Below, in pieces: positions 26,691-56,680 of a stretch of DNA of 64,000 nucleotides. The translations under genes were made by a program, and so were the position numbers. The notes beneath the pieces are model-generated. The model was not told the origin of the DNA, did no database searches, and saw nothing but the letters and a program-made list of their open reading frames with translations. The first letter of the stretch is position 1; the number at the start of each line of letters is the position of its first letter. The DNA is from a phage, in the NCBI GenBank assembly GCA_012178725.1, contig GCA_012178725.1_3030.1; one strand, 5' to 3'.

Positions 26691-26699
26691 ATTAAAAAA

Positions 26700-26722
26700 G
26701 GCCCAACCAAAAAGGAAGGGCC
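26700..26722. terminator. Hairpin ggccc...gggcc flanked by A/T runs between convergent uvsW.1 and the uvsY-side genes
   Basis: Inverted repeat with A-runs on both sides. Confidence 0.45.
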
Positions 26723-26733
26723 AAAACTATAGA

Positions 26734-26913
26734 CTAAAGGTCACACTATAGCAAAAGTTGTGTTTCATTTAATTGTTCTTCCGAACTTTCTGAAACTGGT
26801 AGTTCTTTAATGTAATTATAGCAAGGCCCAGGATGCACAGGACCTTTGTCTGTTTCAACAACCAATGCAGAATCGATTGGAGTTTTACAGACAACACAAA
26901 TCTTATCTGACAT
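26734..26913 (-). CDS. Small Cys-containing hypothetical protein (59 aa; uvsY.-2 position)
   Basis: Hand-translated MSDKICVVCKTPIDSALVVETDKGPVHPGPCYNY...; GGAGA Shine-Dalgarno before ATG; below the ORF-track length cut-off. Confidence 0.5.
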
Positions 26914-27036
26914 GATTGTCTCCTTTTGAATATAATACTATTTATAACCCCATCTTAAAACGCATTTCTTGTACACGCTTTAAACATGCTTCCATTTCTG
27001 CTAAAAGTCTAAATACTTCTTTATAATTTGTCATAT

Positions 27037-43970: not shown

Positions 43971-44339
43971 TTATGCAACTTTAATCCAATTATCTAAATT
44001 TAATTCACCTTTGGCTTTCATTTTTTCAATCAAGAGGTCAGCGGTAATACGACCATTTTGATACCACGTAACATCTTCAGAGTAACCAGTTTCTTTATCT
44101 TCATAAGTCTCACAACGAATTTTACCAATAATCAAAGTTTTCAATTCGTATGTATCTCCAGTAAAAAAGTTAGTTAACATTATTTTCCAAGAGAAATCAT
44201 CAGAAGGACCTTCAGGAGTCATGCAACCTACAAATTCAAATTGTTCTTTGTATAAGTGCCACTGAAGTTCTTTAGTTTCGATAGCTTTATAGCCGTCGTG
44301 ATCTTTACCTTTGATGTATGAGTTAAGATTGATTTTCAT
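43971..44339 (-). CDS. Hypothetical protein
   Basis: 122 aa. Confidence 0.6.
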   Translation of the reverse strand: MKINLNSYIKGKDHDGYKAIETKELQWHLYKEQFEFVGCMTPEGPSDDFSWKIMLTNFFTGDTYELKTLIIGKIRCETYEDKETGYSEDVTWYQNGRITADLLIEKMKAKGELNLDNWIKVA

Positions 44340-44364: not shown

Positions 44365-44397
44365 TAATACTATCACAAAGGAACTATACTGTAAACA
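44365..44397 (-). promoter_or_regulatory. Early promoter-like GTTTAC with a weak -10 (TAGTAT)
   Basis: -35 GTTTAC at 44392-44397. Confidence 0.4.
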
Positions 44398-44416
44398 ACT
44401 TTATGCAATCTTTGGA

Positions 44417-44446
44417 AAATAAAAAAGGACTCCCGAAGGAGTCCTC
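44417..44446 (-). terminator. Intrinsic terminator aggactc-ccgaag-gagtcct plus T-run, downstream of the small basic-protein gene
   Basis: Minus strand reads hairpin then ttttttatttt. Confidence 0.7.
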
Positions 44447-44449
44447 AAC

Positions 44450-44626
44450 TTATGCTTTCTGCTTACCAAAACGAGAAGCATCATCTCGAAGAACCGCACG
44501 TGCTCGGCGCATGATCTTCTCAACAGTTTGATTGATACGAGAGTTCGACCCACGCTTGTAGCCAGCGCGTTTAGAATCACCAACTTTCTTTTCAACTGCT
44601 TTCTTTGCTTTAACTTGTTTTGCCAT
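44450..44626 (-). CDS. Small highly basic protein (58 aa), function unknown
   Basis: MAKQVKAKKAVEKKVGDSKRAGYKRGSNSRINQ...; AAGAG Shine-Dalgarno; ORF track gives a longer 72-aa version from an upstream ATG. Confidence 0.55.
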   Translation of the reverse strand: MAKQVKAKKAVEKKVGDSKRAGYKRGSNSRINQTVEKIMRRARAVLRDDASRFGKQKA

Positions 44627-44870
44627 TATAAATTCTCTTTTAAATGAAAATGCAGGACTTATTGGCATTGCCTGCGCAAGCCCTCAAGGGGGTACTTAGG
44701 TTTTGTATATTTACCGACAGGATAACCATAAACCCGTCATCATTCACATTCAAGAGGTACACCGTAAAACTGCCGGGGTCTTAAAACTATAATGATTCGC
44801 AAATCATTAATCAGACAGTTCGACGGCTCCTCGATTTTAGCTCACACTAAGGCAGTGAATCTCCAATAAA

Positions 44871-45119
44871 TTACTTCAGTGTTACCACAAAGTGACGAAC
44901 TGCTTTTCGTGCAGCAGAAGCCAGAGGCTTAGCATATTTAAGTTCATCTTTTTCCTGAAGCTCAGCAGCTAATGCAGTTTGAGCAGGATTCAGATGTTTG
45001 AAATAACGCAGGATTTCAAGAGCTTCGGCTTCAACATCAATAGATGCGCCATAGTTTTCGTGACCATTATTCCATGCGTTTCGTTGCAGTTCAAGAGCGT
45101 GTTGTAATTGTTTAATCAT
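44871..45119 (-). CDS. rIII: rIII lysis inhibition accessory protein
   Basis: 82 aa; size and position between gene 31 and the 30.x block. Confidence 0.8.
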   Translation of the reverse strand: MIKQLQHALELQRNAWNNGHENYGASIDVEAEALEILRYFKHLNPAQTALAAELQEKDELKYAKPLASAARKAVRHFVVTLK

Positions 45120-45266
45120 TTAAAAATTCTCGTTAGAGATTAAAACTCGGTAGTCACGTTCTTCTGAATTTCATCTTCTTTCGACAGATCTCTCAGTTGT
45201 AGACTACCACATAGAATTGTTCGGTTAACTTATTATTCCGACGCCCAATTCATATTATTATTTATA

Positions 45267-45602
45267 TCACTTATAAAGACACGGAATAGCTTTATAATGA
45301 CAAGTAACGAATTTTTGTTTAATTTCTTTTGGCTGCTTAAGACCCAGAGCTACAAAAGGATGCGGAACATTTCGAATTTGACCAACTGGAAGAGAAGTCA
45401 AATCGCCAACTTCGCAAAAACCTTCAGGAACATCAGGACCAACAGAGTGAACTACACACAGTTCAGGAACTTCACCTTGAACACGTTTACCGATAATAAG
45501 TCCTGATTCTGTAACTTCTTCATCACCAGCTTGTGCAGGTTCAGAAACTAAAATCACATATTCACCGACAGCACGAATTGGTAGCTGTTGTACTTCAGAC
45601 AT
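45267..45602 (-). CDS. 31: gp31 co-chaperonin (GroES analogue)
   Basis: 111 aa from [22 protein letters not shown]... Confidence 0.95.
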
Positions 45603-45632
45603 CATTTTTCCTTTTTGTTAACAGATGAATTA

Positions 45633-56364: not shown

Positions 56365-56680
56365 AAGTCCTCAACTTGAAAATCGTCTTTAAACAATCGG
56401 TTAACTATATGAGCTATTATATCACCATGACACGGCTTTGGTTTACATGTGCATCCTAGCCTCATTCCACGTAAAGGCTCTAAATGTGCTTTAGTTATTT
56501 CTCCGGATTTAATTCGACGTATAAATCTTTTTTGAATAATTCAATGGCAGCCTCCCGGCTGCCAGCATCTTTACCGACGTAATTTCCCCAAAATGTACCA
56601 CGGTGAATATTAACATCAAAGTCGGATTTATATTTATTCACTACCCGACATAGACGGCCCGCGCGGTGATAATTCGGCAT
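56355..56680 (-). pseudogene. Small gene split by a frameshift; CxC...PCHGD motif (DUF4326-like, from memory) in the downstream -1 frame
   Basis: Frame A (56495..56680) ends at TAA; the -1 frame stays open to 56355 and encodes ...LEPLRGMRLGCTCKPKPCHGDIIAHIVNRL...; frames meet at the A6 run (plus T6, 56528-56533). Confidence 0.55.

What the first reader, a model, noticed from the sequence alone, without database searches (positions are those of the whole stretch)
44417..44870. Self-contained small basic-protein gene next to a 200-bp ORF-free stretch downstream of rIII
Between rIII (44871..45119) and the next ORF there are about 200 nt with no ORF over about 30 codons on either strand, in a genome where genes otherwise abut or overlap. 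The stretch holds a palindrome aatgatt-cgcaa-atcatt (about 44791-44809), a GC-rich self-complementary block (about 44664-44690) and a possible TTGAAT-N17-TATGGT promoter. It is followed by a 58-aa extremely basic ORF (MAKQVKAKKAVEKK...) that ends at a strong intrinsic terminator (44417-44446). The arrangement looks like an independent mini transcription unit, and the gap could encode a structured RNA or mark the remains of a deleted gene. By my count T4 has one more 30.x gene in this interval than I find here.
Basis: partly seen in the sequence, partly recalled or inferred. Interest (0 to 1): 0.45.

Follow-up and report, generated by a model that had tools for sequence, protein, structure and literature searches.

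The report
Structured RNA spacer between rIII and 30.9
The "empty" 244 bases between the phage genes rIII and 30.9 are the normal T4 layout, not a lost gene, and they encode a chain of conserved folded RNA modules, including a pseudoknot found in every relative examined and a diverged copy of a bacterial RNA antitoxin (ToxI) that phages are known to copy to defeat a host suicide system.

Summary
The window is a T4-type phage, and T4 has the same 244-nt rIII–30.9 gap and the same 30.x genes, so nothing is missing. The 58-aa ORF is T4 gene 30.9, a conserved basic protein of unknown function. The terminator is real. The proposed promoter is weak and not conserved.

The gap is not junk. On the sense (−) strand it is a string of five RNA modules, each recurring in other Tevenvirinae with compensatory base changes:
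- E, 44831-44865
- A, an H-type pseudoknot, 44695-44743
- C, a small hairpin
- L, a hairpin with a conserved loop

Pseudoknot A occurs exactly once in all 41 distinct spacers examined. Both of its helices covary, and it has no Rfam match.

Module E is a single ToxI-like unit. In relatives it is about 90% identical to the tandem repeats upstream of plasmid toxN genes. In this window it is diverged, though it is still the top hit of a bacteria-only ToxI model.

Aligned spacer sequence is 87-92% identical where rIII third-codon positions are 63-66%.

Best reading: a co-transcribed cassette of autonomous RNA modules, at least partly an anti-defence decoy. The function of pseudoknot A is unknown.

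The parts
44871..45119 (-). rIII (82 aa), the upstream gene of the transcript
   Evidence: ORF; PHROG 1457, lysis inhibition accessory protein, E = 5e-44; 100% identical to T4 RIII.
44627..44870 (-). 244-nt untranslated rIII-30.9 spacer, made up of modules E-K-A-C-L
   Evidence: Same length and 96% identity to the T4 spacer. Aligned parts are 87-92% identical to Mosigvirus-like relatives, where rIII third-codon positions are 63-66% and 30.9 is about 70%.
44831..44865 (-). Module E: diverged single ToxI-like (type III antitoxin) pseudoknot unit, UGGAGAUUCACUGCCUUAGUGUGAGCUAAAAUCGA
   Evidence: Top hit in the whole window for a model built only from bacterial ToxI units (15.6 bits, E = 0.17). 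E = 0.004 within the gap with model R2. The orthologous position in relatives holds units of 20-46 bits. Stem UCAC/GUGA is compensatory relative to UUGC/GCAG.
44754..44832 (-).
   Evidence: RNAalifold on 12 variants gives 25 pairs, 5 of them with compensatory changes. Present only in the T4-type and Mosigvirus-like lineages; shortened in L022.
44695..44743 (-). Module A: H-type pseudoknot. S1 = 44733-44738 with 44716-44721. S2 = 44726-44732 with 44695-44700 (one bulged U). It has an A-rich 15-nt third loop and an invariant AUGAU 5' flank.
   Evidence: Found once in each of 41 distinct spacers. S1 is 87% paired, covariation score 0.453 against 0.143 in shuffles (0/500). S2 is 79% paired, 0.471 against 0.258 (0/500). 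Single copy in the window at 63 bits. No Rfam match.
44677..44695 (-). Module C: small hairpin GUA-CCC..GGG-CUUG
   Evidence: Recurs in most spacers, either 3' or 5' of module A or separated from it by inserted modules. Limited covariation (CCC/GGG, CCUC/GAGG, GCC/GGC).
44652..44675 (-). Module L: hairpin GCAGG/CCUGC with conserved loop CAAUGCCAAUAAGU
   Evidence: L022 and L026 have GAACUGG/CCAGUUC with the same loop, which is a compensatory change.
44627..44651 (-). Translation initiation region of 30.9: weak hairpin UUUUC-AUUUAAAA-GAGAA carrying the Shine-Dalgarno sequence (GAG, 44635-44637)
   Evidence: Read directly from the sequence. Relatives have an analogous UCUCCA-AAA-UGGAAGA hairpin.
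44450..44626 (-). Gene 30.9, a 58-aa basic protein
   Evidence: 98% identical to T4 gp30.9. PHROG 1427, function unknown. The MAKQ start is conserved where the upstream ATG is absent. 66 homologues, all in T4-like phages and all unnamed. AF2 model: disordered residues 1-24 plus one helix at 29-53, pLDDT 68.
44415..44446 (-). Intrinsic terminator (GAGGACUCC-UUCG-GGAGUCCUU plus a U-run)
   Evidence: Terminator scan.
44367..44395 (-). Sigma-70-type early promoter of 30.8 (TTTACA-N17-TAGTAT with TG); together with the terminator it forms a PeSL-type cassette
   Evidence: Promoter scan. PeSL is defined in PMC2839356.

Best explanation
The interval is the ordinary T4 rIII-30.9 junction. Gene 30.9 is a conserved 58-aa basic protein. 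It is preceded by a 244-nt untranslated spacer that is transcribed on the - strand by read-through from the promoters that serve 31 and rIII, and the transcript ends at the terminator after 30.9.

The spacer is a string of five self-contained RNA structure modules (E, K, A, C, L). Related phages keep, lose, insert and reorder these modules like beads on a string.

Shown:
- The helices are maintained by compensatory substitutions.
- Pseudoknot A is present in every spacer examined.
- Module E is homologous to the ToxI antitoxin repeat of toxIN type III toxin-antitoxin loci.

Inferred:
- The modules act as free-standing protein-binding RNAs rather than as a classical leader.
- E-type modules act as antitoxin mimics. 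They would occupy the ToxI-binding site of the ToxN abortive-infection RNase once host ToxI decays, as shown experimentally for pseudo-ToxI in phage PhiTE.
- In this window E is a diverged single unit, closest to the GGAG-type ToxI subfamily, and may be weak or re-targeted.
- Pseudoknot A most likely binds an unidentified protein partner, either a host nuclease or defence protein or gp30.9 itself.
For: - Same layout as T4.
- The spacer is more conserved than flanking synonymous sites.
- Covariation in S1 and S2 of module A, in K and in the two E stems.
- Module A occurs once in each of 41 spacers, at variable distance from both genes: 5 to about 210 nt from the rIII stop and about 45 to 300 nt from the 30.9 start.
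- G-U pairs fit only the sense strand.
- E modules of relatives match tandem arrays immediately upstream of annotated ToxN/AbiQ toxin genes.
- A model built only from bacterial ToxI units scores 20-46 bits in 14 T4-like spacers and gives the rank-1 hit in this window at the orthologous position.
- ToxI-like units were acquired independently by unrelated phages: the 76-kb phage Bas88 and a T5-like phage (in its tRNA cluster) were inspected, and PhiTE-like DU_PP_I is the best BLAST hit.
- Pseudo-ToxI is an experimentally shown anti-ToxIN RNA (PMC3475682).
- rIII is expressed from early, middle and late promoters (PMC9409239).
Against: - In this window E scores only 15.6 bits (E about 0.2 window-wide). 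It is a single unit, and one of its two stems carries an A-G mismatch.
- From my own knowledge of the Laub-laboratory work: wild-type T4 is restricted by E. coli toxIN and escapes through tifA, so this unit does not neutralise that ToxN.
- PhiTE needed expansion of its pseudo-ToxI repeats to escape.
- Modules A, K, C and L have no detectable bacterial counterpart, so a decoy role for them is inference only.
- No transcript or processing data were available.
- High identity of modules between genera could partly reflect recent horizontal exchange rather than constraint.
Confidence: 0.5

Rival explanations
1. Classical cis-acting leader. The structures, especially pseudoknot A and the hairpin holding the Shine-Dalgarno sequence, set translation or stability of the 30.9 message. 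Control could come from gp30.9 binding its own leader, as in T4 gene 32 and ribosomal-protein operons.
For: - The spacer lies directly upstream of 30.9 in all 41 cases.
- gp30.9 is very basic, with a disordered N-terminus and one helix, which is typical of RNA binders.
- The Shine-Dalgarno sequence sits in a small hairpin.
- T4 precedent of a leader pseudoknot (gene 32; my own knowledge).
Against: - Module A lies anywhere from about 45 to about 300 nt from the start codon, with other modules inserted between.
- 30.9 homologues exist without any spacer (L156, L159) or behind a plain early promoter (L039).
- In L152 the modules persist although 30.9 is replaced by a fusion gene.
- One module is clearly an antitoxin homologue.
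Confidence: 0.25
2. Self-cleaving ribozyme or processing site. Module A together with hairpin C has the connectivity of a pistol or pseudoknot-hammerhead ribozyme: a hairpin whose loop forms a pseudoknot, an A-rich strand after the hairpin, and a second hairpin. It would cut the rIII-30.9 transcript.
For: - The topology, and the motif GUUAAAUA after S1, resemble the sequence I recall for the env25 pistol ribozyme (CCACG-UUAAAUAG; my own memory, not checked against a tool or paper) and the AUA4 triplex strand of the pseudoknot hammerhead.
- Modules A and C occur in both orders (A-C and C-A), as in circular permutation.
- A possible linker-tail helix (CCGAAA/UUUCGG) appears in L009 and L042 (read).
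Against: - No Pistol, Hammerhead or significant Twister hit, even when searching only 244 nt at E up to 10; the best match was twister-P3 at 15.8 bits, E = 1.5.
- The hammerhead core order is not met.
- The pistol junction nucleotides and the GU cleavage site are absent.
- The putative P2 helix is 3 bp and invariant in most sequences.
- Module C is missing in L016 and L018.
Confidence: 0.07
3. Selfish or neutral mosaic. The modules are small mobile or recombination-prone hairpin elements, or scars of mini-circle-type exchange, that persist without benefit to the phage.
For: - Presence, absence and order of modules vary between close relatives, with spacers of 120-464 nt.
- The whole spacer plus the 3' end of rIII was moved, circularly permuted, into the tRNA cluster of the unrelated phage phi92.
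- Mini-circle shuffling is documented in T4-type phages (PMC2839356).
Against: - Compensatory substitutions and invariant loop nucleotides point to selection on RNA structure.
- Module A is never lost in the 41 spacers.
- The modules are single-copy in the genome window, not dispersed repeats.
Confidence: 0.1
4. One reading: an independent mini transcription unit with its own promoter, or the remains of a deleted gene.
For: A TTGAAT-N17-TATGGT match exists, and a terminator follows 30.9.
Against: - The promoter match is 8 of 12, sits inside conserved RNA helices and is lineage-specific.
- T4 has the identical gap.
- No reading frame is conserved. The AUGAUG mini-ORF and the 72-aa extension break in relatives.
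Confidence: 0.04

Closest known systems
Pseudo-ToxI of Pectobacterium phage PhiTE, and the ToxI antitoxin RNA of toxIN type III toxin-antitoxin / abortive-infection systems
   Same: Module E is a phage-borne, non-coding, ToxI-like pseudoknot unit without a toxN gene. In relatives it is about 90% identical to units in arrays upstream of ToxN genes. Both pseudoknot stems are kept, and an A-rich AAAAU motif follows the unit.
   Different: - One unit, where ToxI arrays here have about 3-13.
- Embedded in an mRNA spacer between two protein genes together with other unrelated RNA modules.
- The copy in this window is strongly diverged (15.6 bits).
- No experimental evidence of ToxN inhibition.
- Not mentioned in the T4/toxIN papers I could read (PMC9391042, PMC10853763, PMC5449768).
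Pistol ribozyme, pseudoknot-containing hammerhead, and small H-type pseudoknot riboswitches (preQ1-I, NAD+-II, SAM-II)
   Same: Module A is a hairpin whose loop pairs downstream (an H-type pseudoknot). It is followed by an A-rich strand of the kind that lies in the minor groove of the first stem in those RNAs.
   Different: - No covariance-model match to any of them.
- The catalytic or ligand-binding core nucleotides are not present.
- Loop 2 (UUAUC) and loop 3 (15 nt) are longer.
- Its position relative to the downstream start codon is not fixed.
T4 gene 32 mRNA leader pseudoknot (autoregulatory operator)
   Same: A conserved pseudoknot in an untranslated leader of a T-even phage message, upstream of a small nucleic-acid-binding-like protein gene.
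   Different: No sequence similarity; no evidence that gp30.9 binds it; variable distance to the start codon; accompanied by other modules. The comparison rests on my own knowledge of gene 32.
PeSL cassettes (promoter-early plus stem-loop) of T4-type phages
   Same: The 30.9-30.8 junction (terminator at 44425-44446, early promoter at 44367-44395) is this kind of cassette. The circularly permuted copy in phi92 fits mini-circle transfer.
   Different: The rIII-30.9 spacer itself has no promoter or terminator and is not a PeSL.

Membership tests
ToxI / pseudo-ToxI (type III antitoxin RNA) | Sequence similarity to the 35-38-nt ToxI repeat unit | tested here: inconclusive
   A model built from bacterial units only gives 15.6 bits, E = 0.17, rank 1 of 128 kb searched. 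Model R2 gives E = 0.004 within the gap. Orthologous modules in 14 relatives score 20-46 bits. BLAST of the window spacer against plasmids finds nothing.
ToxI / pseudo-ToxI (type III antitoxin RNA) | Two interleaved helices (pseudoknot): GGUG/UACC and UUGC/GCAG | tested here: inconclusive
   Family-wide the helices are 94% paired with compensatory changes. In the window the second helix is UCAC/GUGA (4 of 4 pairs). The first is GGAG/UGCC, with G-C, G-C, A-G and G-U. Natural GGAG-type ToxI units also have a mismatch at that position.
ToxI / pseudo-ToxI (type III antitoxin RNA) | Tandem repetition of the unit | tested here: not met
   Single unit only. What follows (CGAGGAGCCGUCG) at most resembles the start of a second unit (my own reading).
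ToxI / pseudo-ToxI (type III antitoxin RNA) | Adjacent toxN gene (true antitoxin) versus none (phage mimic) | tested here: not met
   The neighbours are rIII and 30.9. This is as expected for a mimic, not for a toxin-antitoxin locus.
ToxI / pseudo-ToxI (type III antitoxin RNA) | Binds and inhibits ToxN | not testable with these tools
   Needs biochemistry or plating assays.
Pistol ribozyme | P1 hairpin whose loop forms a pseudoknot with a downstream strand | tested here: met
   S1 and S2 of module A covary.
Pistol ribozyme | P2 and P3 helices, a strictly 2-nt junction with the cleavage site, and 10 conserved core nucleotides (PMC4604425) | tested here: not met
   No Pistol hit at E up to 10 in 244 nt. 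The P2 candidate is 3 invariant base pairs. The junction and core nucleotides differ. Module C is absent in some spacers.
Hammerhead ribozyme (including the pseudoknot form) | CUGAUGA and GAAA core strands flanking helix II or the pseudoknot | tested here: not met
   AUGAUG lies 5' of S1 and its last G is base-paired (the 6-30 pair is invariant G-C). The order of elements does not fit. No Rfam hit.
Known riboswitch pseudoknots (preQ1-I/II/III, SAM-II/V, NAD+-II, fluoride) | Match to the family covariance model | tested here: not met
   No hit in Rfam 15 at E up to 10, nor in relatives at E up to 1.
PeSL cassette | Intergenic stem-loop terminator plus sigma-70-like early promoter | tested here: met
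   Met for the 30.9-30.8 junction only (definition). Not met for the rIII-30.9 spacer.
T4 gp30.9 protein family (PHROG 1427) | Sequence match and synteny downstream of rIII | tested here: met
   E = 3.5e-31 to PHROG 1427; 98% identity to T4 gp30.9.

The most novel reading that the evidence does not exclude
The rIII-30.9 spacer of T-even-type phages is an RNA anti-defence island: an evolving array of decoy RNAs. The ToxI-like module is only the recognisable member. The universally conserved pseudoknot A, and in relatives the 137-nt kissing-loop RNA B, would be mimics or inhibitors of host defence components not yet known to be RNA-controlled, or a new catalytic or ligand-binding RNA class.
Probability: 0.25. 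Interest if true: 0.85.

Novelty: new variant of a known kind. Interest (0 to 1): 0.62.

Why it matters
T4 is the reference phage, and its rIII-30.9 interval has simply been listed as intergenic. Three points would matter if they hold.

1. A covariation-supported pseudoknot, conserved across many Tevenvirinae genera and absent from Rfam, adds a new structured RNA to a model system where it can be deleted and tested within days.
2. ToxI-like units in well over a hundred Klebsiella T4-like phage records (163 of the 200 phage records with a ToxI-like match are Klebsiella phages), in several other T4-like genera, and as a diverged relic in T4 itself, would extend RNA-based antitoxin mimicry from one Pectobacterium phage to a widespread phage strategy. 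That is relevant to host range and to the choice of phages for therapy.
3. The modular, shuffled arrangement suggests that untranslated spacers can act as cassettes for RNA counter-defence. This gives a concrete place to look for further RNA decoys.

Tried and rejected
- Rfam searches found nothing credible: the region at E up to 10, the whole window at gathering thresholds, and eight relatives. Rfam also fails to recognise a genuine toxI array, so its silence says nothing about type III antitoxins.
- Gene loss is rejected by the T4 annotation.
- Hidden small ORFs are rejected. The 72-aa extension of 30.9 (the LZ1 annotation), the 40-aa GTG ORF and an AUGAUG-started mini-ORF are not conserved.
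- The promoter is rejected: below threshold and not conserved.
- Hammerhead and pistol membership are rejected on core features. The twister-P3 hit of 15.8 bits is at chance level.
- I looked for pairing of the AUGAU flank with the linker and for an A-C long-range helix. There is no usable covariation; only L009 and L042 are suggestive.
- BLAST of modules A, B, C, D, F, H and I against plasmids and E. coli genomes matched nothing except module E.
- A pattern scan of IMG/VR for module A found it only in T4-like contigs and phi92-like contigs that carry the transferred T4 spacer; the other hits look like chance or coding sequence.
- The genome-contig search with ToxN returned only one locus.
- gp30.9 has no Pfam or NCBIfam family and no meaningful solved-structure match. 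The AF2 model is a single helix, so no fold search was run.
- Literature searches for a described RNA in this interval found none.

Full report
**1. What is there**

The window is a T4-type genome with this region on the minus strand. In order it carries cd, 31.2, 31.1, gene 31 (45267-45605), rIII (44871-45119), a 244-nt gap (44627-44870), a 58-aa basic ORF (44450-44626), an intrinsic terminator (stem-loop 44425-44446 plus T-run) and an early-type promoter (44395-44367) in front of the next gene. BLAST finds 968 phage records with this segment, the best at 99.7% identity. The gap is one of only four stretches of at least 120 nt in the 64 kb that lack an ORF of 60 aa or more. Another of the four is the neighbouring 31-rIII leader.

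**2. Comparison with T4**

The T4 reference record has rIII at 130785-131033 and 30.9 (58 aa) at 130364-130540. That is the same 244-nt gap, followed by 30.8, 30.7, 30.6 and onward. The window has the same set of genes, so no 30.x gene is missing. The ORF is gene 30.9 (98% identical; PHROG 1427, unknown function).

The conserved start is MAKQ. The upstream in-frame ATG used in the LZ1 annotation (72 aa) is absent in many relatives.

All 66 homologues in the large protein collection come from T4-like phages and are unnamed. An AlphaFold model built from 27 sequences shows a disordered basic N-terminus and one helix at residues 29-53, with mean pLDDT 68. This is compatible with a nucleic-acid or ribosome binder but gives no assignment.

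**3. Transcription**

The TTGAAT-N17-TATGGT match scores 8 of 12 and is not reported by the scan. Its -10 element is part of a covarying RNA helix, and its -35 element exists only in lineages with module K. No late (TATAAATA) or other conserved promoter is visible in the gap.

rIII is reported to be driven by early, middle and late promoters (PMC9409239). The simplest reading is a rIII-spacer-30.9 transcript that ends at the 30.9 terminator. The terminator plus the following early promoter is a PeSL-type cassette as defined for T4-type phages (PMC2839356).

**4. The gap is conserved and modular**

I collected rIII-30.9 junctions from IMG/VR and GenBank and obtained 41 distinct spacers of 120-464 nt. 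They are mosaics of recurring blocks.

The window has blocks E-K-A-C-L. Klebsiella phages have F-A-E-B-C-D. Karamvirus-like phages have C-A-I or C-A-J. Other lineages have other combinations.

Against Mosigvirus-like relatives, the aligned spacer is 87-92% identical. In the same comparison rIII is 82-85% identical (third-codon positions 63-66%) and 30.9 is about 70%.

In more distant relatives rIII and a 30.9 homologue abut with no spacer (L156, L159), or 30.9 sits behind a plain early promoter (L039). The spacer is therefore a lineage-specific addition, not a decayed gene.

**5. Pseudoknot A (44695-44743)**

Every one of the 41 spacers has exactly one copy.
- Helix S1 (window GACGGG/CCUGUC) is 87% paired over 32 sequences. 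Four of its six pairs show double changes. Its covariation score is 0.453 against 0.143 in shuffles (0/500) and at most 0.137 when the partner column is slid.
- Helix S2 joins the S1 loop to a strand 15 nt downstream. I took the arms by an anchor rule that is independent of complementarity. S2 is 79% paired, with a score of 0.471 against 0.258 (0/500).
- In the T4 lineage S2 is weaker: GG/CC, a bulged U, then AUU(U)/(G)AAU.
- Many unpaired positions are invariant: the AUGAU flank, GUU, UUAUC, CG-U(U)AAA and the AAA run.
- The G-U pairs only make sense on the minus-strand RNA.

Module A is single-copy in the window (63 bits; the next hit is 17 bits). A pattern scan of IMG/VR found it only in T4-like contigs and in phi92-like contigs that carry the transferred T4 spacer. 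Its distance to the rIII stop (about 5 to 210 nt) and to the 30.9 start (about 45 to 300 nt) is not conserved. This argues for a self-contained unit rather than an expression platform.

**6. Other modules in the window**

- **K (44754-44832)** is a 25-bp irregular hairpin. Five of its pairs change compensatorily, for example AACUGUC/GGCAGUU to AAUUGUC/GACAAUU and UAAUGAUU/AAUCAUUA to UAUCGAUU/AAUCGGUA.
- **L (44652-44675)** keeps its 14-nt loop while the stem changes from GCAGG/CCUGC to GAACUGG/CCAGUUC.
- **C (44677-44695)** is a short hairpin flanked by GUA and CUUG. It is found 3' of A, immediately 5' of A, or separated from A by inserted modules.

**7. Module E is ToxI-like**

The block just after the rIII stop looked to me like the 36-nt ToxI repeat, so I tested this.

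- The E module of a Mosigvirus-like relative hits 29 plasmids, with 2-13 places per plasmid in most.
- In all ten loci inspected the array lies directly upstream of a gene annotated as a type III toxin-antitoxin ToxN/AbiQ family toxin (or, in one record, Endoribonuclease ToxN). Examples are E. coli NZ_CP083892, with 5.6 copies of AGGTGATTTGCTACCTTTAAGTGCAGCTAGAAATTC, and Pectobacterium pPA21A, with 13 copies.
- ToxI units and phage E modules share two interleaved helices that are 94% paired with compensatory changes.
- A covariance model built from 13 bacterial units alone scores 20-46 bits in the rIII-30.9 spacers of 14 T4-like loci, and in unrelated phages.
- In this window the same model puts its best hit of both strands of the 64 kb exactly at 44831-44865. 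The score is only 15.6 bits, E about 0.17. Within the gap, a second model gives E = 0.004.
- The window's unit (UGGAGAUUCACUGCCUUAGUGUGAGCUAAAAUCG) resembles the GGAG/UCAC subfamily found next to divergent ToxN genes on Serratia and E. coli IncF plasmids. It shares position and about 77% identity (hand alignment) with canonical E modules that precede the same K domain.

My conclusion is that E is a ToxI-derived unit. It is well preserved in many relatives and diverged here.

**8. Wider picture of ToxI mimics**

- ToxI-like units occur in 200 phage records. Of these, 163 are Klebsiella phages.
- The records also include unrelated families. Bas88 (76 kb) has one perfect unit in a 3' untranslated region just before a terminator. 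The T5-like phage pzk-kv7 has two units between tRNA genes. DU_PP_I is PhiTE-like.
- PhiTE's pseudo-ToxI is the experimentally established example of RNA mimicry of an antitoxin (PMC3475682). Escape there required expansion of the repeats.
- The T4/toxIN papers I could read (PMC9391042, PMC10853763) and the study of T4-family escape from ToxIN (PMC5449768) do not mention a ToxI-like unit near rIII.
- Modules A, B, C, D, F, H and I have no BLAST counterpart in plasmids or E. coli genomes.

**9. How it most likely works**

Shown: structured, selected, sense-strand RNA modules, one of which is homologous to an RNA antitoxin.

Inferred: the modules are expressed within the rIII-30.9 transcript throughout infection and act as independent protein-binding RNAs. 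E-type units would sit in the ToxI site of ToxN once host ToxI decays, preventing abortive infection.

For this window the E unit is single and diverged. From my own knowledge, T4 is restricted by E. coli toxIN unless tifA is amplified. So here E is either tuned to another ToxN subfamily or decaying.

The partner of pseudoknot A is unknown. Its compact pseudoknot with an A-rich third strand is the architecture used by ToxI itself, by pistol and pseudoknot-hammerhead ribozymes and by small riboswitches, but it fails every membership test I could run.

The rivals, with my estimated probabilities:
- a cis-acting leader of 30.9, possibly autoregulated by gp30.9: 0.25
- a selfish mosaic: 0.10
- a ribozyme: 0.07

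**10. Novelty and limits**

The gene, the gap and the terminator are already known features of T4. I could not find the following described in Rfam 15 or in the searched literature:
- the comparative evidence that the gap is a cassette of conserved RNA structures
- the universal pseudoknot A
- the identification of a ToxI-like unit at this locus across T4-like genera

Limits:
- There are no expression or probing data.
- The pseudoknot arms were aligned by rule, but on 32 related sequences, so the shuffle statistics are not probabilities.
- The ToxI assignment for the window's own copy rests on synteny and intermediates more than on score.
- The decoy role of the other modules is hypothesis.

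Noticed in passing
window 45120-45266 (-): The 31-rIII leader is also ORF-free and highly structured. It starts with a late promoter (TATAAATA) and then has nested hairpins whose stems covary between phages. Its block at 45155-45202 (CUACAACUGAGAGAUCUGUCGAAAGAAGAUGAAAUUCAGAAGAACGUG) is 85-92% identical to module D, which sits in the rIII-30.9 spacer of other phages. A hairpin holding the Shine-Dalgarno sequence precedes rIII.
   Followed up: partly
L120 (phage phi92, NC_023693) 1498-1845: The unrelated rV5-like phage phi92 and two IMG/VR relatives carry the whole T4 spacer (96% identical) fused to the last 85 nt of rIII. The fragment is circularly permuted, bounded by a 13-nt direct repeat (TTTATTGGAGATT), and inserted between tRNA-Gly and tRNA-Gln. 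This looks like integration of a mini-circle. The annotated 'rIII-like' 42-aa ORF there is a fusion artefact.
   Followed up: partly
L008 1246-1388 and 16 other loci (not in the window): Module B is a 137-nt RNA present in many relatives' spacers and in some Tequatroviruses as a roughly 150-nt insertion. It has 40 predicted pairs, 18 of them with compensatory changes, a GNRA hairpin, and an apparent loop-loop (kissing) pairing, CGAUGG/CCAUCG, that covaries by eye in at least three lineages (read; not formally counted). It is 93-94% identical between Klebsiella and E. coli phages and has no Rfam match.
   Followed up: partly
L175 701-745 (Escherichia phage Bas88); L176 695-771 (Klebsiella phage pzk-kv7): Unannotated ToxI-like units occur in unrelated phages. 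Bas88 has one perfect unit just before an intrinsic terminator. The T5-like phage has two tandem units between tRNA genes. In total 200 phage records carry such units.
   Followed up: partly
L170 1129-1328 (E. coli plasmid toxI array): Rfam 15 has no family that recognises a genuine toxI array, so type III antitoxin RNAs are invisible to Rfam-based annotation.
   Followed up: yes
window 43971-44339 (-): Gene 30.8 in this window is only about 38% identical in protein to T4 gp30.8 but 96% identical to that of phage LZ1. This is an allelic replacement bounded by PeSL-type cassettes.
   Followed up: no
window 26691-27036 and 56365-56494: Two further stretches (346 and 130 nt) have no ORF of 60 aa or more on either strand and no Rfam hit at gathering thresholds. 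I did not examine them.
   Followed up: no
L152 1749-2533 (Yersinia phage TG1-like contig): Here the spacer modules C-A-E-J are kept, but 30.9 is replaced by a 208-aa ORF that retains only the first roughly 15 residues of gp30.9.
   Followed up: no
window 44825-44866 (-): The T4-type E module begins with GGAG where canonical ToxI has GGUG, and a second GGAG lies at the base of module K. GGAG is the RegB endoribonuclease motif, and RIII is reported to inhibit RegB activation (PMC9409239). I did not test any link.
   Followed up: no
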